Shown: positions 1-47,129, numbered from the stretch's first letter. The stretch is DNA of 51,600 bases from Phycisphaerales bacterium (GCA_030053995.1 JASGCP010000001.1:1-51600); one strand, 5' to 3'. A program made the numbers and translations. Notes: a model not told the origin generated them from the sequence alone.

Positions 1-139
1 TTCCTTTTTTTTTGTAACTTTGCATGCTTTCTCACACGAAACTTAGTAATGCCAATAATTTCAACTATTTTTTTAACCTATCCTCAATTTGTTTGTCTAA
101 CCGACAGGATTTTATATTTTAACTTCAAAAAAAAAAATC

Positions 140-331
140 ATGAAAAAAAAATCAATGTTTTTAGGTTCTTCTCTTAAAAGAACTGAAATTAAAAAAATTA
201 ACGGTGGCACCTATGTTTTTAAAAACGGAAAAAAATTGGAAGTATCAGCTGGTTGTAGCTCTTCTGATTGTGCTGCGGGTTATTGTTGTTGTAGTGCAGA
301 TATATGGGAGTGTTGTAGTTGCTCAATTTAG
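140..331 (+). CDS. GG-leader cysteine-rich peptide precursor (63 aa), bacteriocin/RiPP-precursor-like (copy P1)
   Basis: The leader MKKKSMFLGSSLKRTEIKKINGG ends in Gly-Gly, like Bacteroidota GG-type natural-product precursor leaders. The 40-aa core has 8 Cys and 8 Ser/Thr. A hairpin plus T-run follows the gene. Confidence 0.7.
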   Translation: MKKKSMFLGSSLKRTEIKKINGGTYVFKNGKKLEVSAGCSSSDCAAGYCCCSADIWECCSCSI

Positions 332-353
332 ATAAATAACCTATGTTTAAAAT

Positions 354-382
354 AAAAAGGCCACTTTTTCGGTGGCTTTTTT
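354..382 (+). terminator. Rho-independent terminator of P1
   Basis: Stem gccac/gtggc (360-364 / 372-376) with a 7-nt loop, A-rich 5' flank and T6 run. Homologous to the terminators at 6903 and 7745. Confidence 0.6.
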
Positions 383-566
383 ACGATCCTTAAAAAAAAG
401 TGAATTAAAAGCCTCTAGCTAACAAAACACGCCGAGTGAGCCCCGCCCCTCTCCCTCTATCCAGAGACTACAAAAAAATGCTTAAAAAAGCCTTTAAACG
501 CTAAATAAGGGTATTCTATGCCATATAAAAAACAGCCTACTTTTTGTCCATTATACCATTTTATCC

Positions 567-1388
567 TTATCCGGCAATATTAAAATCCCGCAGGGCATCG
601 TTTAAACTTGTTTTCATATCTGTACTATGCTTTCGTTTCCCGATAATAAACGCACAGGGAACTTGGTAAACACCAGCAGGAAACTCTTTTGGTATCGTTC
701 CAGGAATAACAACGCTACGAGCAGGTATATATCCTTGATATTCTTTTCGTTCTTTAGTAGATACATCTATAATTTTGGTAGATCCAGTAACAACAACGCC
801 CGCACCTACAACAGATTCTTGTTCTACAACAACCCCTTCTACAAGGATACAGCGACTGCCAATAAAGCAACCATCTTCAATAATAACCGGTCTATTTTGC
901 ACAGGTTCTAATACCCCACCAATACCCACCCCACCACTAATGTGCACGCGTTTACCAATTTGTGCACAACTGCCAATGGTAGCCCATGTGTCCACCATCG
1001 TCCCTTCATCAACATAAGCCCCAATATTAACATAGCTCGGCATTAAAATTACTTGTGGTGCCAAATAAGAACCATACCGAGCGACCGCAGGCGGAACAAC
1101 TCTTATACCTAGTTTATCTAAATTTTTATTCTTAACAGGTATTTTATCAAAATACTGAAAGGGAGGGGTATCTATAAGCTCCATTTTAGCGATCGAAAAA
1201 TATAATAATACCGCTTTTTTTACCCATTCATGAACAAGCCATACGCCATCTTTTTTTTCACAAACTCGTATCTGACCCTTGTCTAACAAATCAACAATGT
1301 GCTTAACAGCATCCTCGTATTGTGCCTCTTTTTTGAGTAACGCTCTATCTTGCCAAACAAGCTCAATTATTGCAGCGTACTGTTCCAT
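567..1388 (-). CDS. dapD: 2,3,4,5-tetrahydropyridine-2,6-dicarboxylate N-succinyltransferase
   Basis: 273 aa. N-terminal helical domain followed by left-handed beta-helix hexapeptide repeats (IGKRVHISGGVGIGGVLEP...IIEDGCFIGSRC). Length and layout are typical of DapD. Confidence 0.85.
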   Translation of the reverse strand: MEQYAAIIELVWQDRALLKKEAQYEDAVKHIVDLLDKGQIRVCEKKDGVWLVHEWVKKAVLLYFSIAKMELIDTPPFQYFDKIPVKNKNLDKLGIRVVPPAVARYGSYLAPQVILMPSYVNIGAYVDEGTMVDTWATIGSCAQIGKRVHISGGVGIGGVLEPVQNRPVIIEDGCFIGSRCILVEGVVVEQESVVGAGVVVTGSTKIIDVSTKERKEYQGYIPARSVVIPGTIPKEFPAGVYQVPCAFIIGKRKHSTDMKTSLNDALRDFNIAG

Positions 1389-1546
1389 AAAAATAACTTT
1401 AATAAGTAAATGAATAAAAGCAAAAGTAATCTTTTTGATGCGGTTTTTTAGATGTTAATTTACAATAAGGTAAAAATTATATTTTCACAACACAATGGTT
1501 GTTTGCATTGTCAATCCCTATAAAAACGACAAATGCGGCGTCATTA

Positions 1547-2143
1547 CTATCTTTTAGTAATTTTATGCACATATTTGACGAGCATATCACATTCAATATT
1601 TACTTGGTGATTAGGTTTACACTGGTGTAGTTTTGTAATTTTGTAGGTATGCGGAATAATGGCTATTGATATTTTATTTTTTTTTATAGTTGCAATCGTT
1701 AAACTAATACCATCAATAGCAATAGAACCTTTCTTGAAACAGTATTTTGATAAATTTTTAGGTAATTCAACAACATAATCTATAAATCCTTTTTCCTTAG
1801 CAGATGGCTTTAAGCTAACGATCTTGCCCACGCCATCAACATGCCCTAAAACAAAATGTCCGCCAAGTTGGCTATCGGCTCGCAAAGCAGTTTCTATATT
1901 GAGAATAGTTTTTTTTTCTAAACTTCCTAAAGTAGTACATCTTAATGTTTCTTCAGATATATCAAATCCCAATTTGTTATTCTGGTTTTTAACAACTGTT
2001 AAACAAACGCCATCTAAAGCAATACTATCGCCTAATTGAACTTTTGATAATGTTTTAGGTTTCGCAACTTCCAAATACATGGATTGTTTGTTCTTTACAA
2101 TGTTGGTAATGACTGTAGTGTCTTGGATGATACCTGTAAACAT
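1547..2143 (-). CDS. ribE: riboflavin synthase alpha subunit
   Basis: 198 aa. Canonical MFTGIIQ start and two lumazine-binding repeats (GDSIALDGVCLTV / GSIAIDGISLTI). Confidence 0.92.
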   Translation of the reverse strand: MFTGIIQDTTVITNIVKNKQSMYLEVAKPKTLSKVQLGDSIALDGVCLTVVKNQNNKLGFDISEETLRCTTLGSLEKKTILNIETALRADSQLGGHFVLGHVDGVGKIVSLKPSAKEKGFIDYVVELPKNLSKYCFKKGSIAIDGISLTIATIKKNKISIAIIPHTYKITKLHQCKPNHQVNIECDMLVKYVHKITKR

Positions 2144-2158
2144 AATGATATATTTTAT

Positions 2159-3286
2159 TTATGGGGTTAATGTAATCTTAATATTATCCTGCAACCGAGT
2201 AATCTTTCTTGTTCGCAATAGCATGCGCTGATCAAATTTCTGTATTGTTTCATCTTGAAAAAAGGGAAGTGCCTTGGTAATCGCCCCCCCAATCAAACAA
2301 GGAGATATGTACAATACAAGCTGATTATAGACTTTATTTTTAATAAAAGAAGAAAGAACACGCGCACCGCCTTCAACCAAAATAGAGTCGATACCCTTTT
2401 TGTATAGTAGCACGAGTAAATTATCAAGTTCAATATTATCAGTATCCATAACCATTACAGTAACCAGGGTACTTTGATAGGACGATATTTTATGTGCTGG
2501 GACACCTTTTCCAACAATAATCCATGTTGATGCTTGTGAATCCGTTAATACTTGAGACGACAAAGGAGTGCGGAGATGTGTATCCAAAATAAGCCGAATA
2601 GGATTTCGTCCTTTCCCTGTTGGCAATCGTGTTGTTAACGATGGGTTATCTTTGATAATTGTTTCTACCCCAACTAAGATAGCGGTATGTTGATGTCTAT
2701 ATTGATGTGCATCAGCTCTTGCCTCATCGTTAGATAGCCATTTTGAATTACCATCTGCTCCAACTATTTTGCCATCTAAACTTATAGCAACTTTTAAAGT
2801 TACAAAAGGTTTTTGCTGAACAATGTGGTAGTTAAACGATTGATTGAGTACCTGACCATCAATATCTTCATGGGGAATAGGCAATAAAATTGTTTCGATA
2901 CCTGCTTGTTGAAGTATAGCTAATCCCTTCCCTGATACCAAAGGATTAGGATCAAGCGTAGCTACAACCACTTTTTTAATTCCTGCCACTATAATAGCAT
3001 GAACACAAGGCGGTGTTTTACCTTGATGCGAACATGGCTCTAAGCTAACATACAAAACAGCGTTTTGTGCTCTTGATGCAGCCATATTCAGTGCATAAAT
3101 TTCGGCATGATGCCCGCCCGCTTGAAGATGGGTTCCCATACCAACAATTTGATTATCCTTAACAACGAGTGCCCCAACTGAAGGATTAGGATTTGTTTGT
3201 CCTTTTGTCATTCCGGCCAACCAGCATGCTTTATTTAAGTAATATTCATCTGTAAATGGTTTATAATCATTCATACAGCTTATCAT
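2159..3286 (-). CDS. ribD: bifunctional diaminohydroxyphosphoribosylaminopyrimidine deaminase / 5-amino-6-(5-phosphoribosylamino)uracil reductase
   Basis: 375 aa. CMP/dCMP deaminase zinc motifs HAE...LEPCSHQGKTPPC followed by a RibD C-terminal reductase domain. Confidence 0.92.
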   Translation of the reverse strand: MISCMNDYKPFTDEYYLNKACWLAGMTKGQTNPNPSVGALVVKDNQIVGMGTHLQAGGHHAEIYALNMAASRAQNAVLYVSLEPCSHQGKTPPCVHAIIVAGIKKVVVATLDPNPLVSGKGLAILQQAGIETILLPIPHEDIDGQVLNQSFNYHIVQQKPFVTLKVAISLDGKIVGADGNSKWLSNDEARADAHQYRHQHTAILVGVETIIKDNPSLTTRLPTGKGRNPIRLILDTHLRTPLSSQVLTDSQASTWIIVGKGVPAHKISSYQSTLVTVMVMDTDNIELDNLLVLLYKKGIDSILVEGGARVLSSFIKNKVYNQLVLYISPCLIGGAITKALPFFQDETIQKFDQRMLLRTRKITRLQDNIKITLTP

Positions 3287-3307
3287 TATTAAAAAAATAA
3301 AACAGAC

Positions 3308-6151
3308 TTATTTTTTATAGCTATTGGGGAGTAAAATAAAAGTAGCTCGATTCTTATTAAAATATTGATCAGCCATTTTTTTAGAATTGGCAACCTGAAT
3401 AAAACTATAATCTTTTTTAATTTTATTGATATTTAATAGATTATCTCTAAAATAACTGCGTTCTTGCAGTTGTGCTCGCCAAAACGCATTGGTTGCCAAT
3501 TGGGTTTCTATATTACGCAAAGCCTCGGCTTTTACTTTTCCAATAACTACTGAATCTAAGCCATGTGTTTTTACCGAGTCCACCATTTTATAGGTTAGAT
3601 TTAACAAATTATTATAATTTTCAGGAGCACACACAAAAGAAATAGTAATGTTATACAAATTAGCCGGAATATGACTATAATTACCATATACAGAAACACC
3701 GTAAACGCCACCTTGTTCTTCACGAAGCACATCTCTTAGTTGAATAGAAAGCCCTTCACATAATTCAATTATGCCTAATTTAGTAGTAGGGGTATAAGGT
3801 GCCATGCCCGAATAAATAATTCTAACCGATGTTCTTTTTTCCTTACCTGAATAAAAAATTTTATTAACATCCCCCGTTGGTGGGCGAATACCATTATCGT
3901 GCCATAAAAGATGCTTAGGTGTACTTGGTAGCGATGCAAGATATTGCTTAACAAACGGTTTAATAGAATCGATATTAAAATTACCTACTATTGTAAAAAT
4001 AAAATTACCGGCATCCGAAAACTGTTTTTTATAGAATTCATACGCTCGATCAAAATTTAATTCTGGTAGTCTATCAATAGTAAAGGGTTTTGTTCTAAAA
4101 TTATAGTTACCCATCGCGTATTGAATAGAGTCATCAAATGAGGCGGCTGGATCTTTTGAACGATTGACTAAATCGGTCGCTAATTGTTGGTGCACAATGG
4201 CGAAACCTTTAACATCTTTTCTAGGGTCAACAAAATACGCCGTAATCAATTGAAAAGTTGTTTGTAGATCGGTCACGGAACTACTCGCTAAAATACCCTT
4301 TTGATAAGATTCAATATACGGTGTAACCGCCAGATTTTTTCCTGCCAATTTTTTCAACAACTGCCCATAGTCTAATCTACCTACACCACTTTGGGCAACA
4401 ATATTATCTGAGAAATTTGCTGATATATAATTTTGTGTATCTGATAGAGAGGTGCCCCCCGGTGCAATTGCAGAAATTAAAATCTCATCATTTTTAAAAT
4501 TGGTGGGTTTCAAAACAACTTCTGCACCATTCGATAAAGTTAATACAGTAACCCCAATATCCTTATATTTTTTTTCTGCTGTAATACTTCCCGGCGTAGG
4601 CTGTTGTGGCAAAATAGGACCGTTGGGGGTATTATCGTTATAGTATCCTAAATTTCTATAAACGGAGTCCAAATGAATCATAATAGTTGATGAATCGGGT
4701 AAGTTATTAGTCTCACTGGCGGGTGCTAATACAACCACAACCCTATTGAACGGTCTAATCCATGATGCCAATAATTTATTGGCATTATCAATTGTAATTG
4801 TTGGTAAATATTTTTGATATAGATGATACTCATAATCAACACCGGGCACGGCTTCATTGACTAAGAAATGACGGATTAACTCTTGCACTAAACTAACCGA
4901 TGGCGTTTTATTCTGCTCTTTATAGGATTGTTCAATATTAGCCATCAAACTTGCCTTGGCTCGTGTTAACTCGGGTTCTGAAAAACCATAGTCCATCAAG
5001 CGATCCACTTCTTTGGTAACGGTATCTAAGGAAGGTATTAAGTTCTTAGATGATTTTGCTACGATCGTAAAAACAAGGGCATCATTATCACCCAATAGTC
5101 TATCATAGTTACAACCTGCAAAAACAAACGGAGCATCAGGATTTTGCTGTAAATCTTGAAAGCGTCCAGTTATCATTGTATTAAAAAGATTCCGAACAAT
5201 AGAAGCCCGATAGGCTGTATCGGTAAGTGGTTCCGGTATTTTAGGTAATTTATAAAATACCTCAATAACATTATATGTCTGCTCTGAATCGGTAACAACG
5301 CTCACACGCGTGCCTGAATGGGCAGGAACAGAAAAATCTAATTTAGGTAGCTCCTTGAGCGGATTTTTGAGTTTGTTAAACAGAGTTGTAATTTTTTTTT
5401 GCACCGTATCAACATTAATATCACCTACTACGATCACCGCTTCTAAATCCGGTCGATACCAGTTTTTATAAAAATCTTTTATTTTTTCTATTGGCGTATG
5501 CTGAATAGACTCGGGCGTTCCTATTGGCAAACGCTTAGCGTACTGTGAGCCTTGTAGTAATATAGGTAAGAATTTATCGCGTACCCGTGCGTCAACATTT
5601 CGTCCTAAACGCCACTCCTCTAAAACAACTTTTCTTTCCTTGCTGAGTTCTGCCGTATCAAAAATTTGTCCGTGTGCCCAATCTTCTAATATTTGTAAAG
5701 ATGTATCTAATAAAGTTTTGTTGTCGGTAGGAATTTGTAATTCATATACTGTTTCGTCAAATGAGGTGTAGGCATTGAGGTCTGCACCAAAATTAACCCC
5801 ATTTCTTTCTAAAAAGTCAACTATTTGTTGCTTTTTAAAATGCTCAGTACCATTAAAAGCTAAATGTTCTACAATATGTGCAACGCCCAATTGATCATCG
5901 TGCTCAAGAATAGAACCTGCCTTTACTACCAATCTTAATTCAACTCTATTTTTAGGATAGCTGTTTTTTAAAATATAATATTGCAGACCATTGGATAGTT
6001 TGCCAGAAATAATTTTAGGGTTGAACGGTAAAATGGGTGATATTAATTGAATAGTACTATCAGTTATTTGGTCATGCGTATTAGCCCAACTTAGTGGCGT
6101 AATAAAAAAAATAAAAATATTCAAGATAAAAAGGAACAATAATTTTTTCAT
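3308..6151 (-). CDS. secreted M16-family (pitrilysin-like) zinc peptidase
   Basis: 947 aa. N-terminal signal peptide (MKKLLFLFILNIFIFFITPLSWA) and inverted zinc motif HIVEH (HxxEH). Two-lobed M16 length. Confidence 0.85.
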   Translation of the reverse strand: MKKLLFLFILNIFIFFITPLSWANTHDQITDSTIQLISPILPFNPKIISGKLSNGLQYYILKNSYPKNRVELRLVVKAGSILEHDDQLGVAHIVEHLAFNGTEHFKKQQIVDFLERNGVNFGADLNAYTSFDETVYELQIPTDNKTLLDTSLQILEDWAHGQIFDTAELSKERKVVLEEWRLGRNVDARVRDKFLPILLQGSQYAKRLPIGTPESIQHTPIEKIKDFYKNWYRPDLEAVIVVGDINVDTVQKKITTLFNKLKNPLKELPKLDFSVPAHSGTRVSVVTDSEQTYNVIEVFYKLPKIPEPLTDTAYRASIVRNLFNTMITGRFQDLQQNPDAPFVFAGCNYDRLLGDNDALVFTIVAKSSKNLIPSLDTVTKEVDRLMDYGFSEPELTRAKASLMANIEQSYKEQNKTPSVSLVQELIRHFLVNEAVPGVDYEYHLYQKYLPTITIDNANKLLASWIRPFNRVVVVLAPASETNNLPDSSTIMIHLDSVYRNLGYYNDNTPNGPILPQQPTPGSITAEKKYKDIGVTVLTLSNGAEVVLKPTNFKNDEILISAIAPGGTSLSDTQNYISANFSDNIVAQSGVGRLDYGQLLKKLAGKNLAVTPYIESYQKGILASSSVTDLQTTFQLITAYFVDPRKDVKGFAIVHQQLATDLVNRSKDPAASFDDSIQYAMGNYNFRTKPFTIDRLPELNFDRAYEFYKKQFSDAGNFIFTIVGNFNIDSIKPFVKQYLASLPSTPKHLLWHDNGIRPPTGDVNKIFYSGKEKRTSVRIIYSGMAPYTPTTKLGIIELCEGLSIQLRDVLREEQGGVYGVSVYGNYSHIPANLYNITISFVCAPENYNNLLNLTYKMVDSVKTHGLDSVVIGKVKAEALRNIETQLATNAFWRAQLQERSYFRDNLLNINKIKKDYSFIQVANSKKMADQYFNKNRATFILLPNSYKK

Positions 6152-6576
6152 GGAGCACTATTTTAATAAAGAAGCGAAGATTGCGTATGCGAAGTTATCA
6201 ATTAACCATGACTTTTCAAAAGTATTGTTGAAATAGGGCTCACTTGAGGCTACTTTACTTAGTTGTACGGTTAAACCCTATTTTTATTGCTTGTTTGGCT
6301 GTCTGTGTAATAGATTAACTTTTTAGTTGCAAATCATTGTCAAAAAAAAACTCTATCACCACTATCTTTAAATTTTTGTGAGATATATCTCTTGTTTTTA
6401 TGCCACAAATATATTACAATTAATTGAAAATCAAATTGTTAAACTTTATAAATCCCCCATAGTATTTTTGCCGTATTTATTTAACTTTTATTTAACTTTT
6501 ATTTAGGTTAGATTTTCATCAAAATAACGTTACTTAGTACATATTTATTTTTCACCATTAAATTTTTTTTAAAAGT

Positions 6577-6894
6577 ATGAAGCAAAGATTACAAAAAATG
6601 GGTACTTTACTAAACAGAGTTGAATTAAAAAGTAGTGAATTAAAGAAATTGTCCGGCGGACTTAAATGTTCTTCGGATTGCGTATGGTACGGTGGAAAGT
6701 CTTGTGCTCTAGGAGATGGGGGAGCAAGATGTTGCAACCATGATAAAGAATATACACTTTGGGATGGACAGAAGATATATGGATGTGACATGGCTGCTAA
6801 TGGCACAGATAGTCCTGGTTGCTCTTATAACCAAACACCAAGCGCGGCTTGTGTATATTACAGTACCATAAAAAATGCATGGGTAAGAGGTTAA
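6577..6894 (+). CDS. GG-leader cysteine-rich peptide precursor (105 aa) (copy P2)
   Basis: Leader MKQRLQKMGTLLNRVELKSSELKKLSGG, followed by a 77-aa core with 8 Cys. Terminator directly downstream. Confidence 0.7.
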   Translation: MKQRLQKMGTLLNRVELKSSELKKLSGGLKCSSDCVWYGGKSCALGDGGARCCNHDKEYTLWDGQKIYGCDMAANGTDSPGCSYNQTPSAACVYYSTIKNAWVRG

Positions 6895-6902
6895 AAAAAA
6901 TA

Positions 6903-6931
6903 AAAAAGCTACCTAAACGGTGGCTTTTTTT
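6903..6931 (+). terminator. Rho-independent terminator of P2
   Basis: Stem gctacc/ggtggc, 5-nt loop and T7 run. The 3' flank tttatgc is shared with the 7745 terminator. Confidence 0.65.
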
Positions 6932-6973
6932 ATGCTTTGTAAAAAAAGAGATTAATCAAGAAATAATATAAAT

Positions 6974-7386
6974 TTACTTGGCGAAGGCAATGTAATTAAT
7001 ATTGAATACGGTAGTAAATGCTTGAGCAGGTGACCATGTTTAACCACCGTTCGTTGTAGTGGAAAATTGCCCATTATTCCCAACCATCACGCCGTTAATC
7101 GCTGAACTAAATGCTACGGATGTTATACTATTCATTCCTGAAATAGTTTCATAAGGTCCCCAAGTTTCCCCCCGTCAGTTGTAGAGGAAAATTCCCCATG
7201 ATATCCCAATGCTATGCCATTTAAGGTGCCATCAATAGGAGGAAATAAAGGACTAAATAGGATAGGAACCAGCGGTGTATCAACAGTTGTAGCAGAATTC
7301 AAAGAAGTATCATTTGGGGAGTTCTCAACTTTTTTAGTACAACTGAATAATAAAAGAAATAGAAGAAAGTAAAGTAGCTTTTGCAT
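6974..7386 (-). pseudogene. disrupted lipoprotein with Asp-box (BNR) repeats
   Basis: Lipoprotein signal MQKLLYFLLFLLLFSC. Reading continues only after a frameshift at the G-run near 7165-7175 (TTDGG/ETWGPYETISG...). A second Asp-box is hit by an in-frame TAA (TTNGG*TW). Confidence 0.6.
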
Positions 7387-7563
7387 ATTATTTTATCTTT
7401 GGGACATTAGACAATTCTTGTATGCTAATAAAAAATTAAAGAGGTTTGCAAAAACTCGGTTAATAATTGCACAAGGTATTTTTTTGATAAATCAAAATAT
7501 TTTTAGGGTGTTTCCCTCGCAATCTTGAGTCGTGCTTTGCGGAGTATCCCTACTGCGTAAGAA

Positions 7564-7596
7564 CTTCGTTGCCTCTGCAATCACTAAGGCGGAAAA
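7564..7596. repeat. short dispersed repeat X, copy 1
   Basis: cttcgttgcctctgcaatcactaaggcggaaaa is about 80% identical to the copies at 9101 and 10363. Confidence 0.6.
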
Positions 7597-7744
7597 TAAG
7601 TACTTTAGCTTGTACAATGGTAAAAGTATTCGCTCTTATTTTTCTCTTATTGTAATTTTTTATTTCCCGTCTTTTGTGATTTTATGTTTTATGCAGAGAT
7701 ATTTTATTTCAACGAGGCGTACAACTCATTAGTTAGTTTTGGTT

Positions 7745-7779
7745 AAAGGCTACTATGTTTTATATAGTGGCTTTTTTTA
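7745..7779 (+). terminator. orphan rho-independent terminator (no intact gene upstream)
   Basis: Stem gctactat/atagtggc, 7-nt loop and T7 run. Sequence-homologous to the P2 terminator, including the tttatgc flank. Confidence 0.55.
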
Positions 7780-7852
7780 TGCTTGTAAAATTCAATTTTT
7801 TAATACATATTATAAAATAAGTATTAATACATTTTTTTATGTCTAAATGATG

Positions 7853-7860
7853 TAAGTTTG
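7853..7860 (+). promoter_or_regulatory. Bacteroidota-type -7 promoter box (TAAGTTTG) for P3
   Basis: Matches the TAnnTTTG consensus and lies 16 nt before the ATG at 7877. The homologous position before P4 is mutated. Confidence 0.4.
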
Positions 7861-7876
7861 CGAAAAATGAAAAAAC

Positions 7877-8161
7877 ATGAAACAAAAATCAATGAGTTTA
7901 GGTTCTACTCTTACAAGAACCGAAAGTAAAGAAATTAGAGGTGCATCATTTATAAGAATGGGTAGCGATGGTAAAGACCAATTATGCCATAATGGCAACC
8001 CAGAAAAAGGTAACTACTGTATAAATTGCATCGGTCTTGGTGGCCTTGTTGTTAATGATTCATGCACGAATACCTGTGATGGTGCTACTTACGCAGTTTC
8101 AGTTCCTATTTTGGGGTTCTTTTGTTGTGTAGCTTCAGTCTTTCATTGTACCCCAAGTTAA
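7877..8161 (+). CDS. GG-type (Gly-Ala) leader cysteine-rich peptide precursor (94 aa) (copy P3)
   Basis: Leader MKQKSMSLGSTLTRTESKEIRGA. The core has 8 Cys with motifs C-x2-C, VNDSCTNTC and GFFCC, which are shared with P4 and P5. Confidence 0.7.
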   Translation: MKQKSMSLGSTLTRTESKEIRGASFIRMGSDGKDQLCHNGNPEKGNYCINCIGLGGLVVNDSCTNTCDGATYAVSVPILGFFCCVASVFHCTPS

Positions 8162-8252
8162 TCATCTACTACAGTAGAAATAGTTTTGATTTTTTAAACA
8201 AATATTAAAATTATTTGTCTAAGTGATGTATGCTTACAAAAAATATAAAAGC

Positions 8253-8550
8253 ATGAAACAAAAATCGTTAAATTTAGGTTCTTCATTAACAAGATTAGAA
8301 CAAGATTAGAGAGTAAAAAAATTAGGGGGGCATCTTTTACTAGAAAAGGCAAAGACGGCAAAATACAGTCTTGCCATGATGGATACACTAGGGTGGTAAT
8401 TATTGCATAACATGTCAAGCTACTTCAGGAGCATACTATGGTTCGTGGGTTAATGATTCATGCACGAGTACATGTGATGCTCCTGCTTATGTTGCAGAAG
8501 CTACAGGATTGATGTTTTTTTGCTGTATAATGGGAGATTATAGGTGTTAA
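8253..8550 (+). pseudogene. disrupted paralogue of P3 (copy P4)
   Basis: Leader MKQKSLNLGSSLTRLE is followed by an 11-bp tandem duplication (acaagattaga at 8289-8299 and 8300-8310) that creates a TAG. A second 1-nt frameshift lies near 8385-8395. The conceptually repaired core is ...GNYCITC...VNDSCTSTC...MFFCCIMGDYRC. Confidence 0.7.
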
Positions 8551-8748
8551 TTATTTTAAAACTCGCTAAATCATTTTTTGAGGTAGTAAGAGAAGTATGT
8601 TTTAATTTTTGTTAAAAAATTCCAAAGCTATTTTTTTGCAGAATAACAAAAATGTTGTTTTGGTGGGTTTGTTACCTACGGGATTGTAATTCGCTTTTTC
8701 GAAAGAGCATAAAAAACTACCGAAAAAAATGGCTTAATAACTTTACAA

Positions 8749-9018
8749 TTAAAACATGCAACTGCTTGAGCTTATACAACAAAAGAACCCAACTGCGTAA
8801 GTATGCTCACCGCTAGCACATGAATTACTGCACTGATCATTAACCCACCAACCCATCGCCTGTCCGCAATTTAAACACTAATTACCATGTGTTAGCCTAC
8901 CGCCATGGCACCATTGGTTTTTTACCGTCACTACCAGTTCTTGTAAATGATGCTCCTGTATTTTTTTACTTTCGATTCTTGTAAGAATAGAACTTAAACT
9001 CATTGATTTGTTTTTCAT
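8749..9018 (-). pseudogene. disrupted paralogue of P3 (copy P5)
   Basis: Leader MKNKSMSLSSILTRIESKKI, then a locally frame-shifted segment. An in-frame TAG sits where P3 has Tyr (GN*CLNC versus GNYCINC). The downstream remainder is ...VNDQCSNSC...GFFCCISSSSC. The terminator stem is decayed. Confidence 0.65.
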
Positions 9019-9100
9019 TGTTTTATATTTATATTTTCGTCATAGAGCCAAGAATATCAAATATTAACAAGGTAATTTTTGCTCTTTTTATAGTATTCGT

Positions 9101-9134
9101 CTTCGTCGCCCCTTCAATCACTAACACAGAAAAG
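9101..9134. repeat. short dispersed repeat X, copy 2 (upstream of the TPR gene)
   Basis: cttcgtcgccccttcaatcactaacacagaaaag. Direct repeat with the copy at 10363. Confidence 0.6.
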
Positions 9135-9147
9135 TTAATTTAATTCT

Positions 9148-9155
9148 TATCTTTG
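9148..9155 (+). promoter_or_regulatory. Bacteroidota-type -7 promoter box (TATCTTTG) for the TPR gene
   Basis: TAnnTTTG match 32 nt upstream of the ATG at 9188. Confidence 0.35.
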
Positions 9156-9187
9156 CAGAAGATATTTTATAAAACAATTCCAATAAT

Positions 9188-10333
9188 ATGGACACATCTG
9201 AATTAAAACCTAATGATGCAGACGCATATTACAACAGAGGATTAGGTAAAGCTGATTTGGGTGACTATGAAGAAGCAATTGCGGATTATACTAAAGCAAT
9301 AGCATTAAAACCTGATTACGCAGAAGCCTATTACAAGAGAGGAAACGCTAAATATTATTTAAACGATCATGAAAGCACGATTGCAGATTTCACCAAAGCA
9401 ATAGAATTAAAACCTGATTACGCAGAAGCCTATAACAACAGAGGAATAAATAAAGATACTTTACACGACTATGATGGAGCAATTGCGGATTACACCGTAG
9501 TGATTCGTTTAAACCCTGATGACGTAGATGCATATTGCAACAGAGGGGTTAGTAAAAAAGAATTACAAGACTATAAAGGGGCGATTGCTGATTTGACCAA
9601 AGCAATCGAATTAAATCCTGATTGTGGGGAAGCATATTGCAACAGAGGAAGCACTAAAGCTACTTTACACGACTATGACGGAGCGATTGCAGATTTCACC
9701 AAAGCAATAGAATTAAAGCCTGATTGTGTAGAAGCATATTACAACAGAGGATTAGCTAAAGCCACTTTACACCAATATGACGGCACGATTGCAGATTTCA
9801 CCAAAGCAATAGAATTAAACCCTTATTTAGTAAAAGCCTATAACAACAGAGGAGATGCTAAATCTGCTTTACACGACTATGACGGGGCGATTGCTGATTA
9901 TAGTAAAGCAATAGCATTAAAACCTGATGACGCAGAAGCCTATAACAACAGAGGATTAGCTAGATATTATTTACACGACTATGATGGAGCCATTGCGGAT
10001 TACAGTACAGCAATAGAATTAAGACCTCATGAAGCATTAGTATATAAAAACAGAGGATTAGCTAGATATTATTTACACGACTATGATGGAGCGATTGCGG
10101 ATTACACCGTAGTGATTTGTTTAAACCCTGATGACGTAGATGCATATTGCAACAGAGGGGTTAGTAAAAAAAAATTACAAGACTATAAAGGGGCGATTGC
10201 TGATTACAGTACAGCAATAGAATTAAAACCTGATTATGCAGAAGCATATAATAACAGAGGAAATGCTAAAAAAAAATTAGGCGACATTGATGGCTATAAT
10301 GCAGATATGCAAAAATATCAAAAATTAAAATAG
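9188..10333 (+). CDS. tetratricopeptide (TPR) repeat protein
   Basis: 381 aa made of about 11 tandem 34-aa units (A.ADY.KAIELKPDYAEAYNNRG). The ORF starts inside a unit. About 105 nt at 9490-9595 recur almost identically at 10100-10205. Confidence 0.85.
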   Translation: MDTSELKPNDADAYYNRGLGKADLGDYEEAIADYTKAIALKPDYAEAYYKRGNAKYYLNDHESTIADFTKAIELKPDYAEAYNNRGINKDTLHDYDGAIADYTVVIRLNPDDVDAYCNRGVSKKELQDYKGAIADLTKAIELNPDCGEAYCNRGSTKATLHDYDGAIADFTKAIELKPDCVEAYYNRGLAKATLHQYDGTIADFTKAIELNPYLVKAYNNRGDAKSALHDYDGAIADYSKAIALKPDDAEAYNNRGLARYYLHDYDGAIADYSTAIELRPHEALVYKNRGLARYYLHDYDGAIADYTVVICLNPDDVDAYCNRGVSKKKLQDYKGAIADYSTAIELKPDYAEAYNNRGNAKKKLGDIDGYNADMQKYQKLK

Positions 10334-14949: not shown

Positions 14950-15075
14950 TAAAAAAATGGAGGCAATAGTTTTCTCGCAGGCTTTGCAAAGGTAGTTTTT
15001 TTTAGGTTAATCTTTATTTTTTAGTAACAAGAAATATTTTTTTCTATGGCGGATATGTAATAATGGGTATATGCA

Positions 15076-15286
15076 GCTCTATGACGAAATAAGTAGATAA
15101 TGTAGCTAAATTTCATATTGATTGCCATGTCGCCTATAGCAGAAAAGCCCTTACTCTGTATGCTTGATTTTTTCTTTGTTTATTTCTTTTGTATCAAGAC
15201 AAAAAAAGAAAAATAAAAATTATCGTTTTAAGGCACAATTAGTGAACCATTAAACATTATTAAGCCCACTCATTTCGTCATAGAGC
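15076..15286. mobile_element. MITE-like element (211 bp) with perfect 15-bp terminal inverted repeats
   Basis: gctctatgacgaaat (15076-15090) is the exact reverse complement of atttcgtcatagagc (15272-15286). The interior is AT-rich and partly palindromic with no ORF. End-like fragments occur at 9035-9048 and 45454-45476. Confidence 0.45.
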
Positions 15287-15373
15287 CTTTTTTGCTTCGC
15301 CAATCCAATTAAAATATTAACTTCGTAAACTGTTAAAGAATAATTATTTCAAAATCCTTAAAATAAATATTAT

Positions 15374-35078: not shown

Positions 35079-35199
35079 TATTTTAATGTAGTTGAGATGC
35101 TAAGTTAAAAAAATAATAGGGCTTTATAACGAAATAAGAAGAGTAAAGTAATGTCTGAACCGTGATTTATAGGATTAAATAATTGGCATGATTGTTCTT

Positions 35200-35361
35200 T
35201 TGTTCTTTGTCTGAATCACGGATGACATGGATTAAGGGATTACACGGATTATTTTGAAGTTGTTTGAAAAATGATTTTAAAAATTAAATATTTGGCTATT
35301 TTTTCCAAAAATCTGCCTAATCTTGAAGACATGACAGGTTTACAAAAATCACATGCTACTC
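35200..35361. repeat. intergenic repeat A, copy 1 (GGAT-iteron-containing element)
   Basis: About 90% identical to 38350-38511. Contains cacGGATgacatGGATtaagGGATtacacGGATt. A degenerate partial tandem copy lies at about 35148-35199, and an E-like motif (ttgagatgctaag) at about 35091. Confidence 0.8.
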
Positions 35362-36087
35362 AGTTATTTGGTTAGGGTGGCTATAATTTGTAGTAACTCT
35401 AATAAAAACTCTTTTCGGTACAAGATGTTTTTCTATTACTTGTCCCCCAATCTCTATTGCTTTTGACCCAAGTTCTATTGCTTTTACTTCAAGTTTTAGT
35501 GCGTTTGGCGTAGCCTCATGAAAAATTCTACCATGGTATTTTTTTATCCAACCAATTTGCTCATCATCTTTGTAAACTTTAACTGCAAACTTATCGTCTT
35601 GATTAGTAGATTCTAATTGATAAGTAAGAATATCTCTTATTTGCAAAGTATTTCTACAATGCTTAATCTTATTTAAACCTACTATCTCGGTAACAAAATG
35701 AAGCCCGTCAATGTAGTTATAATCAGCTAAAAATTCAAAATTATCGGTTAGCAACATTCCTTGCGTTTTACCCAACAAATAAAACTTATCATTAGCCTTA
35801 CTTTTATCTACCTCCCAAAAATTATAAAAATTATCAATATCAGGTCTGGAACTCTTTGTTAATCTTTGAGCAAATATATCCACCACATTGCCATTATACA
35901 CCTTAGTTACATCTTGAAACTCTGTATAAGGTTTAAATCCTTCTACTGTTTGTAATATTTCTTCTGAAGAATAACTAAAAGTATGCTTACCCATATCGTC
36001 TTTTTGGATTGTCCCAATAGCAGTTCTTCGCTGCCCCGCCACCCTACGCCATATTAAATATATTTTGCTAAATTCTGCTTGTATCAT
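35356..36087 (-). CDS. HipS-like N-terminal domain fused to a HIRAN domain (putative partner/antitoxin of the adjacent kinase)
   Basis: 243 aa. The N-terminal half (AIGTIQKDDMGKHTFSYS...IFAQRL...FYLLGKTQGMLLTDNFEF) follows the HipA N-subdomain-1 pattern (VGxL..F.Y...F..LLP..R....F.LL...G.D..GA). The C-terminal part (FVTEIVGL...LTYQLESTNQDDKFAVKVYKDDEQIGWIKK) is HIRAN-like. Only 1 nt separates it from the kinase stop. Confidence 0.55.
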   Translation of the reverse strand: MIQAEFSKIYLIWRRVAGQRRTAIGTIQKDDMGKHTFSYSSEEILQTVEGFKPYTEFQDVTKVYNGNVVDIFAQRLTKSSRPDIDNFYNFWEVDKSKANDKFYLLGKTQGMLLTDNFEFLADYNYIDGLHFVTEIVGLNKIKHCRNTLQIRDILTYQLESTNQDDKFAVKVYKDDEQIGWIKKYHGRIFHEATPNALKLEVKAIELGSKAIEIGGQVIEKHLVPKRVFIRVTTNYSHPNQITE

Positions 36088-36088
36088 T

Positions 36089-37054
36089 TTATTTGTTATT
36101 TTTAAGAATTGCTCTTAGCTTAGCGATACGCAAAGTTAAGAGTTTAATAATTAATGCTTTTCTTTCTTTAGGAATGCAATGCGATTTCATATTACAGGGT
36201 ATTACCTCATCTATTTCAAGCATTATATTTTGAATAATTGCCTCATCAAATTTTTCTATAAAAACAGATGCATCTTTAAGTTGTTCATTATAAACTGGAT
36301 CGGCTAACATTTTCTCAACCAAATCAAAATGACTAATTTTTTGACCCTTCCAATGCAATTCACTCTTTCCACCCGCAATATATTTTTCTAAATCTTGTTC
36401 ATTATTTAATAACCCATTCACGCTTTCATCAGTCAATTCTCGTGCCAAAGAGCTACCATTATCATATATGGGCGCTGTTTTATAATAATTAGGATCATGG
36501 ACAAATGCGGTGTTGGGTTTACCAATAAAAGCCCAATTTTCTTGATGTCTATCTGTATTTCCGATAACAGCATCAAATAGTAGCGTTTCAAAAAAGAAAT
36601 TATTAAATTTTTCTAATTCAAATTTTTGTAATGTTTCCATTAACAGTTGAAAAGTATATTGCTTTCTTGTTTCAGTTTTATCAGGTTCAAAATCCTGATT
36701 TATTGCTATCATAAACTTACCAACTTCTATTAAATTTGTGTCATCTATAACAGTCATATTGGGACTTATACATCCTAATTCATTATCGAAAAGTGCAATG
36801 TCATATCTAAGAATGTCTAATCCTAAACTTTTCCCTAATTGATAGGCAATAATTTCATTGTAGAATTCATAACGATAATATTTTTCTGGTTTATTATCTT
36901 TAGATAGTGTTTTTGCAGAATATTTAAGATAAAACTGCTTGCCGTTAGCATCTTGTAATATTTTTTTTGCTCTGGTACCACCACTGGCATGCCAAGATAA
37001 TTGTTCCCATTTTGAAGCATCAATAAACTTTATATCCACCTGATAACTGCACAT
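36089..37054 (-). CDS. HipA-family Ser/Thr kinase, HipT-like (core kinase without N-subdomain 1)
   Basis: Catalytic motif GNTDRHQENWAF, Mg-binding APIYDNGSSL and a Gly-rich loop HASGGTRAKK. The ATG at 37054 is preferred. The ORF track extends to a GTG at 37120 through a Tyr-rich, improbable leader. Confidence 0.8.
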   Translation of the reverse strand: MCSYQVDIKFIDASKWEQLSWHASGGTRAKKILQDANGKQFYLKYSAKTLSKDNKPEKYYRYEFYNEIIAYQLGKSLGLDILRYDIALFDNELGCISPNMTVIDDTNLIEVGKFMIAINQDFEPDKTETRKQYTFQLLMETLQKFELEKFNNFFFETLLFDAVIGNTDRHQENWAFIGKPNTAFVHDPNYYKTAPIYDNGSSLARELTDESVNGLLNNEQDLEKYIAGGKSELHWKGQKISHFDLVEKMLADPVYNEQLKDASVFIEKFDEAIIQNIMLEIDEVIPCNMKSHCIPKERKALIIKLLTLRIAKLRAILKNNK

Positions 37055-37303
37055 AGAAATTTTTGAAGAGTCCCAACAGTAATAATAGTAAATAAAATGG
37101 TAAAAAGAATGTAAACGCACATGGACAATTTCATTAGTAGCATTGTAAAACTATACAATTAATGGTTAATGCGTGATGATATAGTATTTAATAAATATGG
37201 GCAATTACAAAATCATTAAACATTGCTATGTCTTATCAGGATTCAATTGCTTCCAGATTGATATAGAGGACAAATAAATTCAATAAAAAAGGGTAGAAAC
37301 GCA

Positions 37304-37420
37304 ACATGCTATATCGCCACCTTTTGACATCTATTTTTTTTGAAACAGTTGCTGGTTAGTTTTTTGCAAGGGGGGGAATAGAAAAGTTAAATGCAGTTGC
37401 ATTAGCTGATTATTTCGTAG
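37304..37420. repeat. intergenic repeat B, copy 1
   Basis: acatgcta...gttgctggttagttttttgcaagggggg...gcattagctgattatttc aligns with 38501-38612. Confidence 0.7.
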
Positions 37421-37512
37421 AGATGCGTATTTGCATAATTAGCAGTTTTACGCACAAACTTACATAGAAAAGATGTAGCTTCGCAAAATTATTAATTTAA
37501 AATTAAAAGTAT

Positions 37513-37926
37513 ATGCTTAAAAATGTTCTGAAGTATTGTAATTTTTTCTGTCCATGTATTTTATTAAGTTTGACACTATTTGGTTGTGGTGTTTTTCGCC
37601 AATCGCAAACGCCACAAAGGGATTTCACAAATAATGACTGGGTATGGAAAAGTCCCGAAGATAATTTTAGAACAATCGGTAGAGTCGGCGGTTCTTCAAG
37701 TGCAACATATGTACTTGGCATCGGTGGACTTTCACACAAAACCCTGATTGAAAGGGCTATAGATTCTATGTATGCACACGCAAATTTTAACGAACAAGAG
37801 GATGGTACAACTATTATCAACCAAACACGCGAATATAGATACGCTGGTTTTTTTCCTTTTTACTTTAACTTAACAGTAACCGTTCGCGGTACGCTTGTTC
37901 AAGTAAAGAAGCCAAATAACAGATAG
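37513..37926 (+). CDS. hypothetical lipoprotein
   Basis: 137 aa. Lipobox LTLFGC. Followed by a strong terminator. Confidence 0.6.
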   Translation: MLKNVLKYCNFFCPCILLSLTLFGCGVFRQSQTPQRDFTNNDWVWKSPEDNFRTIGRVGGSSSATYVLGIGGLSHKTLIERAIDSMYAHANFNEQEDGTTIINQTREYRYAGFFPFYFNLTVTVRGTLVQVKKPNNR

Positions 37927-37953
37927 ATTGTTTTTACGGCATGATAACCACAA

Positions 37954-37994
37954 AAGGCAAAATAAATTATCTAATAATCTATTTTGCCTTTTTT
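37954..37994 (+). terminator. Rho-independent terminator
   Basis: 10-bp perfect stem aaggcaaaat/attttgcctt (37954-37963 / 37981-37990), then TTTT. Confidence 0.6.
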
Positions 37995-38349
37995 CTAACT
38001 ATTTTTATTATACTATCATTCAGGCATCAACAATAAACATATAGCTTTAAGGGGATAGAAGTATCAGAATGAAAAGAAATAAAGAAACAGCCTATATCAT
38101 ACTAAGAAAATAATTGCTTAAAATTCAATTGGGATACTAATCATCATTATAATTATTATCGTTGGAATTAGTATTTTGTTGAAGCAATAACAATTTTTTA
38201 TTTATTACCCTAATTTCGCAAGTAGTTTAGGCAAAGAAGGTTAAAAGCCTTTAAAATAAAGGGGGTTAAATATTTGGGCTAAATCATATTTTGAGGTGCT
38301 AAGATGTTTTAGGGGTGGTGGAAAAATGTTGTTATTTTTGTATGGAAAT

Positions 38350-38612: not shown

Positions 38613-38651
38613 GTTAATTTTCTGTAGTTTGAGAGACATTCGTATTTGTAA

Positions 38652-40433: not shown

Positions 40434-40435
40434 GT

Positions 40436-47070: not shown

Positions 47071-47129
47071 TAACTGTTTTATTGAATTAAAAAGCCAGCA
47101 CCCGAGACTATAAAAAAGATTATGGTGGG

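What the first reader, a model, noticed from the sequence alone, without database searches (positions are those of the whole stretch)
140..8161. Family of GG-leader peptide genes whose cores each contain exactly 8 Cys, scattered as self-contained promoter-gene-terminator modules without maturation or export genes
P1 (140-331), P2 (6577-6894) and P3 (7877-8161) share a leader of the form MK(K/Q)KSM.LGS.L.R.E.K.I.G(G/A). This is typical of Bacteroidota double-glycine natural-product precursors. Their cores are otherwise divergent (40, 77 and 71 aa), yet each contains exactly 8 cysteines. P1 is also Ser/Thr-rich (CSSSDCAAGYCCCSADIWECCSCSI), so thioether or disulfide chemistry are both conceivable. 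The terminators are recognisably homologous (gg(c)tac/gtggc stem followed by ttttt(t)a(t/c)g), so whole modules have been duplicated. The window contains no C39-peptidase ABC exporter, radical SAM/SPASM enzyme, LanM/LanC or thiol-disulfide oxidoreductase. The precursors are therefore orphaned among housekeeping genes (dapD, M16 peptidase), and their maturation route is unknown.
Basis: partly seen in the sequence, partly recalled or inferred. Interest (0 to 1): 0.65.

Follow-up and report, generated by a model that had tools for sequence, protein, structure and literature searches.

The report
Scattered cysteine-rich double-glycine leader peptide genes
A sponge-associated Chitinophagaceae bacterium carries about twenty scattered copies of a small gene whose export leader is conserved and whose cysteine-rich core is hypervariable. 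It is a new, dispersed branch of a known class of secreted bacteriocin-like peptides, not a new kind of system.

Summary
The three ORFs are real. Each has a double-glycine-type leader and an 8-Cys core.

An exhaustive profile search found 32 representative relatives. All have the same 23-28 aa leader and unrelated Cys-rich cores. At least 16 come from one metagenome bin. Metagenome depth shows the promoter and leader about 17-20 times per genome, but each core only once.

Cys counts range from 4 to 14. Eight is the commonest count, and 30 of 33 counts are even. "Exactly 8" is therefore not a family rule.

The window's peptides match no curated model, TIGR04149 included. Their leader profile does align with Bacteroidota peptides that lie in operons with a C39-ABC exporter, a HlyD protein and thioredoxin-fold or VKOR oxidoreductases (97% probability). 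One such operon is in Sediminibacterium, the nearest genus.

Best explanation: these are disulfide-bonded, leader-cleaved exported peptides, matured in trans by an exporter and oxidoreductase encoded elsewhere. That locus was not found for this genome.

No rSAM or Lan enzyme turned up in any context examined.

Verdict: new variant of a known kind, moderate interest.

The parts
1..139 (+). P1 upstream module. It has a Bacteroidota -7-type box TAACTTTG (15-22) and a TTTGTCTAA element (about 91-99). Blocks 1-80 and 121-139 are repeated many times in the source metagenome.
   Evidence: Sequence. Depth is 485/292 (1-80) and 384 (121-160) against a baseline of about 21. Alignment with other modules. 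The 5'UTR is also conserved upstream of P0021.
140..331 (+). P1 precursor gene, 63 aa: a 23-aa leader ending in GG and a 40-aa core with 8 Cys.
   Evidence: Relatives are P0016 (65% identity, 8 Cys kept) and P0005.
356..382 (.). Hairpin (GCCAC...GTGGC) with a T-run; terminator after P1, also read on the opposite strand.
   Evidence: D5, I6.
6577..6894 (+). P2 precursor gene, 105 aa: a 28-aa leader (5-aa insertion) ending in GG and a 77-aa core with 8 Cys.
   Evidence: The P2-type relative P0004 on L001 has a 28-aa leader and 10 Cys.
6902..6937 (+). Terminator hairpin after P2.
   Evidence: D5, D20.
7745..7784 (+). Terminator-like hairpin that shares GTGGCTTTTTTTATGCTT with P2's terminator. It lies 93 nt upstream of P3, after a 350-nt stretch with no recognisable gene.
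   Evidence: D20. No family match in 7400-7745. No Rfam or tRNA hit.
7840..7876 (+). P3 promoter-like region: TGTCTAA (7840-7846) and the -7-type box TAAGTTTG (7853-7860).
   Evidence: Sequence. Alignment. Depth 417 against 22.
7877..8161 (+). P3 precursor gene, 94 aa: a 23-aa leader ending in GA and a 71-aa core with 8 Cys.
   Evidence: P3-type relatives P0007 and P0010 keep 8 Cys, one of them relocated.
8253..8550 (+). P4, a P3-type pseudogene. An 11-bp tandem duplication (8289-8299 / 8300-8310) creates a stop, and there is a second frameshift near 8384-8395. The core reading frame still shows the 8-Cys pattern.
   Evidence: An intact counterpart, P0007, lies on L006. Logan contigs match the window exactly.
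8749..9018 (-). P5, a P3-type pseudogene in inverted orientation, with several frameshifts.
   Evidence: (I1, I4, I5).

Best explanation
P1, P2 and P3, and the decayed copies P4 and P5, are precursors of secreted, disulfide-bonded peptides. They belong to a lineage-specific, multi-copy branch of the Bacteroidota double-glycine-leader, cysteine-rich, bacteriocin-like peptides.

Proposed mechanism:
1. Each gene is transcribed from its own TAnnTTTG-type promoter (inferred from sequence).
2. The 23-28 aa cationic leader has no Cys and no hydrophobic stretch. It is recognised by the C39 peptidase domain of an ABC exporter that works with a HlyD-type membrane fusion protein.
3. The leader is cut after GG (P1 G23, P2 G28) or GA (P3 A23) during export (inferred from leader homology).
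4. The 8 Cys are oxidised to 4 disulfides by a thioredoxin-fold or VKOR-Trx oxidoreductase (inferred).

These maturation genes are not in the window. I propose that one locus elsewhere in the genome serves all of the roughly 20 dispersed precursors in trans.

The conserved promoter and leader with hypervariable cores suggest a diversifying repertoire. It most likely acts as antagonistic peptides. The target is unknown.
For: Leader features
- The sequence meets the classical double-glycine consensus: hydrophobic at -4 and -12, Glu at -8, GG or GA at -2/-1.
- The leaders contain no Cys and are net positive.

Family
- 32 representatives score E<=1e-3 in 1.84 billion proteins. All are 52-108 aa with the same leader and unrelated Cys-rich cores.
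- Mean leader identity is 55%, against 28% for cores. Cys makes up 15% of core residues.
- At least 16 members come from one bin, spread over many contigs.
- Leader and promoter depth is about 17-20 times baseline, while cores are single-copy.

Disulfides
- Cys counts are even in 30 of 33 members (p = 7e-7) and in 86 of 90 further peptides.
- P0016 keeps all 8 Cys of P1 but only 4 Ser/Thr.
- P0010 relocates one Cys and still has 8.

Machinery next to relatives
- Sediminibacterium sp. C3 has an operon of Trx-like protein, C39+ABC exporter, HlyD, a 6-Cys GG peptide and a DUF4369-thioredoxin protein. The same set of genes lies beside the same peptide in five other loci, as far as each locus extends.
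- A Tenacibaculum locus has 2 C39-ABC exporters, 2 membrane fusion proteins, a VKOR-Trx protein, a LytTR two-component system and 12 GG peptides with 4 or 6 Cys.
- P0025 lies directly after a C39+VKOR+Trx fusion.
- The window-type leader profile aligns with the cluster-embedded leaders at 97.4% probability, E = 9e-12, in the same register.

Organism
- SecY is about 80% identical to Sediminibacterium and other Chitinophagaceae.
Against: - No exporter, peptidase or oxidoreductase was found in the window, nor beside any close family member (L001, L006, L087-L091). The trans-maturation step is therefore unverified for this genome.
- The one exporter/HlyD homologue detected in the source metagenome has a different abundance ratio (18.4/4.6 against about 24/35). 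It probably belongs to another organism.
- The window peptides match no curated GG-leader profile.
- P3 has Ser at -7 and GA rather than GG.
- Two of the five copies here are pseudogenes.
- No RNA data exist.
- AlphaFold models are of low confidence (pLDDT 55 and 61), so no fold or disulfide connectivity is supported.
- A10 was partly gathered with patterns derived from this family, so the hhalign result is not fully independent.
Confidence: 0.62

Rival explanations
1. They are thioether RiPP precursors (lanthipeptide, or rSAM-made sacti-/ranthipeptide of the TIGR04149 type). A tailoring enzyme encoded elsewhere links Cys to Ser/Thr or to carbon atoms.
For: - P1's core is rich in Ser/Thr next to Cys.
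- 6 of 33 family members weakly match TIGR04149 (best E 0.0025, below cut-off) and 2 match lanthipeptide leader models at E>0.2.
- Remote precursors served by one enzyme are known from prochlorosins (my own knowledge).
Against: - The window peptides hit no such model.
- Cys counts are strongly biased to even numbers.
- P0016 has 8 Cys but only 4 Ser/Thr.
- No rSAM or Lan gene was seen in any of the gene contexts examined. Thiol-disulfide oxidoreductases recur there instead.
Confidence: 0.1
2. They are stranded, largely non-functional remnants. The family spread by duplication or recombination, the cognate exporter has been lost or is absent, and the copies are decaying.
For: - Two of the five copies in the window are frameshifted.
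- No maturation gene lies near any close member.
- IS elements surround P0011.
- No transcription data are available.
Against: - Three intact ORFs here and at least 16 elsewhere keep their leaders and their even Cys frameworks.
- P1/P0016 and P3/P0007/P0010 retain Cys positions despite 35-50% divergence.
- Promoter and leader are conserved at the DNA level across about 20 copies.
Confidence: 0.12
3. Maturation is the same, but the targets are eukaryotic (sponge host cells or grazers) rather than competing bacteria. The peptides would be knottin-like effectors acting on channels or proteases.
For: - The source is a sponge metagenome.
- Several members have the C-C-CC-C-C spacing typical of inhibitor cystine knots, for example P0021, P0020 and the Sediminibacterium peptide.
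- The family combines a conserved leader with a hypervariable core, as venom peptide superfamilies do (my own knowledge).
Against: - No fold evidence was obtained.
- Related clusters carry a LytTR two-component system typical of bacteriocin loci.
- Free-living Sediminibacterium and marine Flavobacteriaceae have the same class of peptide.
Confidence: 0.13
4. They are intracellular Cys-rich metal-binding or redox proteins, and the N-terminus is not a cleaved leader.
For: Cores are 15% Cys.
Against: - The leader is homologous to leaders of peptides encoded beside C39-ABC exporters.
- Cores are hypervariable while the N-terminus is conserved, which is the opposite of what a metal-binding site would show.
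Confidence: 0.03

Closest known systems
Bacteroidetocins (class IIf bacteriocins of Bacteroidales; Coyne et al. 2019, PMC6671954)
   Same: - Same phylum (Bacteroidota).
- A leader cleaved after GG.
- An even number of Cys, forming disulfides.
- Dependence on a double-glycine-peptidase ABC transporter and a dedicated thiol oxidoreductase.
- The same gene set surrounds homologous-leader peptides in Sediminibacterium and Flavobacteriaceae.
   Different: - Bacteroidetocins have a 15-aa leader and 42-aa mature peptides with 4 Cys.
- They sit in a compact 4-gene cluster, with one or a few genes per genome.
- Here the leader is 23-28 aa and the cores are 40-77 aa with 8 Cys (4-14 across the family).
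- There are about 20 dispersed single-gene modules with no adjacent machinery.
- Sequence similarity to bacteroidetocins was not tested.
Cluster-embedded GG-leader Cys-rich peptides of Sediminibacterium and Flavobacteriaceae (NCBIfam NF047798 leader_Chryseo, NF047792 CCPGW family, annotated only as putative bacteriocins)
   Same: - A homologous 23-aa leader in the same register (hhalign 97.4%).
- Cys-rich cores with even Cys counts, some with C-C-CC-C-C spacing.
   Different: - Those peptides have mostly 4 or 6 Cys.
- They lie in arrays next to a C39-ABC exporter, HlyD and an oxidoreductase.
- The window's subfamily (MKQKSMSLGSSLKRTEIKKINGG) scores below every curated model and is dispersed.
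Prochlorosins (ProcA precursors and ProcM in marine picocyanobacteria)
   Same: Many precursor genes with a conserved leader and hypervariable cores are scattered around the genome and served by one remote enzyme. This is from my own knowledge and concerns organisation only.
   Different: - Prochlorosins have an NHLP-type leader.
- They undergo lanthionine chemistry by a LanM enzyme.
- They occur in a different phylum.
- No Lan enzyme or lanthipeptide leader match was found here.
TIGR04149 (GG_sam_targ_CFB) rSAM-modified RiPP precursors
   Same: A Bacteroidota GG-type leader. Six more distant family members give weak matches.
   Different: - P1-P3 give no match at E<=10.
- No radical SAM neighbour was seen in any context.
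- The best member scores 17.7 bits against a cut-off of 25.

Membership tests
Double-glycine leader peptides (C39 peptidase / ABC exporter substrates) | N-terminal leader of 15-30 aa, without a hydrophobic signal-peptide core, ending in GG, GA or GS | tested here: met
   P1 1-23 ends in NGG, P2 1-28 ends in SGG and P3 1-23 ends in RGA. None has a hydrophobic stretch or a Cys.
Double-glycine leader peptides (C39 peptidase / ABC exporter substrates) | Consensus positions: hydrophobic at -4, -7 and -12, Glu at -8 | tested here: met
   Read from the sequence. P1 has I-4, I-7, E-8 and L-12. P2 has L-4, L-7, E-8 and L-12. P3 has I-4, E-8 and L-12 but Ser at -7, so it meets the consensus only partly.
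Double-glycine leader peptides (C39 peptidase / ABC exporter substrates) | A cognate C39-domain transporter or peptidase encoded in the same genome | not testable with these tools
   None in the 51.6-kb window. The rest of the genome could not be reached. Such a transporter is present beside homologous-leader peptides in Sediminibacterium sp. C3 and Tenacibaculum.
Double-glycine leader peptides (C39 peptidase / ABC exporter substrates) | Match to curated leader profiles (TIGR01847, NF047798, PF10439) | tested here: not met
   No hits for P1-P3 at E<=10 in NCBIfam or Pfam. Only more distant family members hit weakly.
TIGR04149 rSAM-modified RiPP | HMM score above the curated cut-off (25 bits) | tested here: not met
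   No hit for P1-P3. The best hit in the wider family is 17.7 bits.
TIGR04149 rSAM-modified RiPP | A radical SAM/SPASM maturase in the neighbourhood | tested here: not met
   No peptide-modifying radical SAM enzyme in the window or in contexts L001, L006 and L087-L095. The only radical SAM gene seen is a MiaB-type enzyme with UPF0004, Radical_SAM and TRAM domains, 6 kb away in L091.
Lanthipeptides | A LanB/LanC, LanM, LanKC or LanL enzyme, and enough Ser/Thr partners for the Cys | tested here: not met
   No Lan domain in any Pfam listing. P0016, the close relative of P1, has 8 Cys but only 4 Ser/Thr.
Bacteroidetocin-type (class IIf) systems | A four-gene cluster: TM protein, peptide, thiol oxidoreductase and ABC transporter with a GG peptidase | tested here: not met
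   The window loci are single genes among dapD, ribE, ribD, an M16 peptidase and a TPR gene. A comparable cluster is seen only for relatives.
Inhibitor cystine knot (knottin) peptides | Six Cys spaced C-C-CC-C-C with 1-4, 2-5, 3-6 connectivity and a knotted fold | tested here: inconclusive
   The spacing is present in P2 and in P0005, P0020, P0021 and P0033. AlphaFold models are of low confidence. There is no match in the PDB by sequence or by fold.

The most novel reading that the evidence does not exclude
A sponge-associated bacterium maintains a venom-like peptide library. About 20 dispersed loci share one promoter-plus-leader cassette and carry rapidly diversifying, knottin-like disulfide frameworks. 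The products would be aimed at eukaryotic targets (host cells, grazers, ion channels or proteases) rather than at rival bacteria. That would make it a bacterial parallel to conotoxin or spider-toxin superfamilies, and a possible bacterial source of sponge 'knottins'.
Probability: 0.12. Interest if true: 0.8.

Novelty: new variant of a known kind. Interest (0 to 1): 0.45.

Why it matters
- If the model holds, one exporter/oxidoreductase pair would process about 20 unrelated disulfide-rich cores that share only a leader. That would be a naturally promiscuous system, useful for making disulfide-rich peptide libraries.
- The family adds a sizeable, unannotated set of candidate antimicrobial or bioactive peptides from freshwater-type Chitinophagaceae in sponges.
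- Genome miners that depend on co-located enzymes, or on the current GG-leader HMMs, miss such dispersed precursors.
- The broader class is already recognised through bacteroidetocins and the NCBIfam putative bacteriocin leaders, so the advance is incremental.

Tried and rejected
- **Curated profiles.** NCBIfam and Pfam scans of P1-P3 gave nothing at E<=10.
- **Word-indexed protein searches.** P3 and P1 alone returned almost only themselves. An alignment query was needed.
- **Exact leader DNA in GTDB genomes.** No match.
- **JGI metagenome scan with the leader alignment.** 520 pattern matches, none confirmed.
- **M16 peptidase as a synteny anchor.** Only about 29% identical hits, so no use.
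- **Rfam and tRNA scans.** No hits, so 7400-7745 stays unexplained.
- **RNA-seq runs.** None available.
- **PDB sequence searches.** The profile and the P3 and P2 cores gave no meaningful hit.
- **AlphaFold2.** P3-type and P1-type alignments gave pLDDT 54.6 and 61.3, too low to use. Foldseek on the P1 model found nothing at E<=0.001.
- **Laying metagenome contigs on the Sediminibacterium exporter operon.** A collinear exporter/HlyD homologue was found, but its depth ratio (18.4/4.6) does not fit the window organism (about 24/35). It cannot be assigned to this genome.
- **Literature.** Searches found no paper on this subfamily or on the C39-VKOR-Trx fusion. The Spongilla lacustris metagenome paper could not be tied to this sample.
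- **Readings considered and rejected.** A Sec/Tat signal peptide (no hydrophobic core) and a tmRNA or sRNA upstream of P3.

Full report
**Observation**

The three ORFs exist exactly as described: 140-331, 6577-6894 and 7877-8161, all on the + strand.
- P1 and P3 have 23-aa N-termini, MKKKSMFLGSSLKRTEIKKINGG and MKQKSMSLGSTLTRTESKEIRGA.
- P2 has a 28-aa version with a 5-residue insertion, MKQRLQKMGTLLNRVELKSSELKKLSGG.
- The cores are 40, 77 and 71 aa, each with 8 Cys.
- This is not chance. The region from 13 nt before the ATG to the end of the leader is 84% identical in DNA between P1 and P3 over 80 nt (D1).
- Hairpin and T-run terminators follow P1 (360-382) and P2 (6902-6930) and are 82% alike over 34 nt.

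Three corrections are needed.
- The third 'homologous terminator' (7745-7784, 18 nt identical to P2's) lies upstream of P3. It follows about 350 nt in which I found no gene, no family remnant, no Rfam family and no tRNA or tmRNA.
P4 (8253-8550, +) has an 11-bp tandem duplication (8289-8299 / 8300-8310) that creates a stop, and a second frameshift. P5 (8749-9018, -) has several frameshifts. Logan contigs from two independent runs match the window without a single difference across 7882-9200, so the frameshifts are not errors of this assembly.
- The claim of no maturation genes holds for the window. Pfam/PADLOC scans of the non-ribosomal ORFs from 13.7 kb onward and a tblastn of the whole window found none. 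The tblastn queries were an exporter, a HlyD protein, VKOR-Trx and thioredoxin proteins.

**Source and organism**

The stretch is held by two runs labelled sponge metagenome. SecY is about 80% identical to Sediminibacterium, Parasediminibacterium and other Chitinophagaceae. The organism is therefore a Chitinophagaceae (Bacteroidota) with about 34% G+C. Its exact sequence is not among the GTDB representative genomes.

**The family**

Word-indexed searches with P3 or P1 alone found almost nothing. A profile search found P0002, P0004, P0005, P0007 and P0008. An exhaustive HMMER scan of 1.84 billion representatives found 32 proteins at E<=1e-3.
- All are 52-108 aa. All begin MK.K...LG..L.R.E.K.(I/V).G(G/A/S) and continue with unrelated Cys-rich sequence.
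- Mean pairwise identity is 55% in leaders and 28% in cores.
- Cys makes up 15% of core residues and is absent from every leader.
- At least 16 members carry locus tags of one NCBI bin, labelled Phycisphaerales but evidently containing contigs of this low-GC Bacteroidota lineage. They are spread over many contigs.
- Other members sit on short contigs binned as Limnohabitans or Alphaproteobacteria in the same MAG series. Two lie on the 2.08-Mb and 1.06-Mb contigs of a Chitinophagaceae MAG.

Laying the metagenome contigs on the window gives a copy-number estimate.
- The leader and two upstream blocks reach 290-580x word depth against a baseline of 20-35x, which is about 17-20 copies.
- Each core is at baseline.
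- Loose ends after the leader read ...IVNGGKTINK and ...NEIKKINGGK, so they are further GG paralogues.
- The conserved unit is therefore promoter, 5'UTR and leader, and the core is unique to each locus. P0021 illustrates this. Its miscalled N-terminus is the translated 5'UTR of P1, yet its core is a different 6-Cys peptide.

**Cysteine counts**

'Exactly 8' is not a family rule. The 33 cores have 8 Cys (16 members), 6 (6), 10 (4), 14 (2), 12 (1), 4 (1) and odd numbers (3).

What does hold is parity. Thirty of 33 counts are even (binomial p = 7e-7). So are 86 of 90 peptides found with a degenerate leader pattern in GTDB genomes.

Within subtypes the Cys framework is conserved.
- P1 and P0016 share all 8 Cys, although the Ser-rich stretch CSSSDC becomes CSRDEC. 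P0016 has only 4 Ser/Thr for 8 Cys.
- P3, P0007 and P0010 all have 8 Cys, and P0010 has moved one of them.

Even counts and conserved Cys without conserved Ser/Thr favour disulfides over lanthionines.

**Curated families**

P1-P3 hit nothing in NCBIfam or Pfam, even at E<=10. Across all 33 members, the only models matched by several members are GG-leader bacteriocin or RiPP models, and all matches are weak:
- TIGR04149: 6 members, best 17.7 bits against a cut-off of 25.
- NF047792 (CCPGW family): 5 members.
- NF047798 (leader_Chryseo): 5 members.

The leaders do satisfy the classical double-glycine consensus, with hydrophobic residues at -4, -7 and -12 and Glu at -8. P3 has Ser at -7 and GA at the cleavage site.

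**Maturation route**

Close family members are always alone among housekeeping, IS or restriction-modification genes. More distant members are not alone.
- P0025 lies immediately after a 524-aa protein with Peptidase_C39, VKOR and Thioredoxin_4 domains.
- P0030 lies in a Tenacibaculum polynesiense locus with two C39-ABC exporters, two AprE/HlyD proteins, a homologous 528-aa VKOR-Trx protein, a LytTR two-component system and 12 GG peptides with 4 or 6 Cys.
- L094 and L095 show similar peptide arrays: L094 with an exporter fragment and a membrane fusion protein, L095 with both of those and a thioredoxin/AhpC protein.
- Most relevant is Sediminibacterium sp. C3, from the nearest named genus. Its operon encodes a Trx-like protein, a C39+ABC exporter (740 aa), a HlyD protein (445 aa), a 66-aa GG peptide with 6 Cys and a DUF4369-thioredoxin protein (413 aa). 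The peptide is MKQKFEKLGSVLSRKEAKLVVGG followed by a core with C-C-CC-C-C spacing.
- The same genes, as far as each locus extends, lie beside the same peptide in five other loci.

A profile of the window-type family aligns with a profile of these cluster-embedded peptides at 97.4% probability (E = 9e-12) over the 26 N-terminal columns, in the same register. One caveat applies: some of those peptides were found with family-derived patterns.

This gene set mirrors the experimentally studied bacteroidetocin clusters. Those encode a peptide, a thiol oxidoreductase and an ABC transporter with a GG peptidase, and both GG cleavage and disulfides were shown for them (PMC6671954).

**Most likely mechanism**

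Shown by sequence:
- Independent small genes with TAnnTTTG-type boxes. These are TAACTTTG at 15-22 for P1 and TAAGTTTG at 7853-7860 for P3. L001, L006 and L087 have similar boxes.
- A conserved leader.
- Hypervariable Cys cores with even Cys counts.

Inferred:
- The leader is bound and cut by the C39 domain of an ABC exporter working with a HlyD protein.
- The 8 Cys form 4 disulfides with the help of a thioredoxin-fold or VKOR-Trx oxidoreductase.
- One such locus elsewhere serves all of the roughly 20 precursors in trans.

Not shown:
- That this genome has such a locus. The only exporter/HlyD homologue I could detect in the metagenome has a different abundance ratio and probably belongs to another organism.
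- Expression. No RNA runs are available.
- Fold. The models are of low confidence and there is no PDB match.
- Target.

**Rivals**

- Thioether RiPP chemistry is disfavoured by Cys parity, by the Ser/Thr deficit and by the absence of rSAM or Lan enzymes in every context examined.
- Decay of stranded copies is real for P4 and P5. It does not fit the conserved leaders and Cys frameworks of the intact genes.
- A eukaryote-directed, knottin-like role is not excluded and would be the most interesting outcome.

**Verdict**

The finding is real. It is best filed as a new, dispersed, high-copy subfamily of the known Bacteroidota class of double-glycine-leader, disulfide-rich, bacteriocin-like peptides. 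It is not a member of TIGR04149 or of the lanthipeptides. Interest is moderate.

Noticed in passing
window 35356-51109: A low-GC (26-32%) defence island. It holds a HipA-like plus HIRAN pair matching PADLOC PDC-M03A/B, a 1566-aa TmtA (Tiamat) homologue at 1273 bits followed by an SF1 helicase (MkoA-like), a trypsin-like protease, a PD-T4-3 GIY-YIG nuclease and AbiD.
   Followed up: partly
window 8562-8655 (also L006 about 490-535): A short element just after pseudogene P4 reaches about 30 times baseline depth in the sponge metagenome (791/935 against 27/38). Many contigs join at 8565. A similar sequence follows the P0007 gene on L006. It could be a MITE, a conserved 3' element or a promoter; this is unresolved.
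   Followed up: partly
window 6400-6493, 6964-7151, 7434-7527, 481-560: Other short intergenic stretches with 4-10 times excess depth in the metagenome contigs, so they are repeated elsewhere in the community or genome.
   Followed up: no
window 9036-9050, 15074-15088 (-), 15274-15288, 35119-35133 (-); L001 about 259-275, 1686-1700, 1819-1835: The motif TTCGTCATAGAGCCA recurs in intergenic DNA. There are 4 matches with up to 3 mismatches against 0.5 expected by chance. It also occurs three times on the related contig L001. Its function is unknown.
   Followed up: partly
window 6952-7386 (-): A lipoprotein-like gene (MQKLLYFLLFLLLFSC...) between P2 and P3 is interrupted by four in-frame stop codons, so it is probably a pseudogene.
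   Followed up: partly
window 7400-7745 (+): About 350 nt ending in a strong terminator-like hairpin (7745-7775), with no ORF of the family, no Rfam match and no tRNA or tmRNA. It may be an unannotated small RNA or the remnant of a lost module. The stretch 7564-7596 is 82% identical to 9101-9133.
   Followed up: partly
L092 7203-8777; L093 8030-9616; also L099, L100, L117, L125, L139, L143, L144: A recurrent Bacteroidota protein of about 525 aa fuses an N-terminal C39-like domain to VKOR and thioredoxin domains. It lies next to GG-leader Cys-rich peptides. The Tenacibaculum copy lacks the Cys at the position aligned to L092's SDC motif, so the domain may bind leaders rather than cut them. I found no paper describing it.
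   Followed up: partly
L001, L102, L113 and proteins with QM528_ locus tags: Low-GC contigs carrying this Bacteroidota peptide family are deposited in MAGs named Limnohabitans, Alphaproteobacteria and Phycisphaerales. This looks like binning contamination in that MAG series.
   Followed up: no
window 9188-10333 (+): A 381-aa protein made almost entirely of 34-aa TPR-like repeats (DYDGAIADYTKAIELKPD...). The repeats are also visible at DNA level (D2). It lies directly beside pseudogene P5.
   Followed up: no
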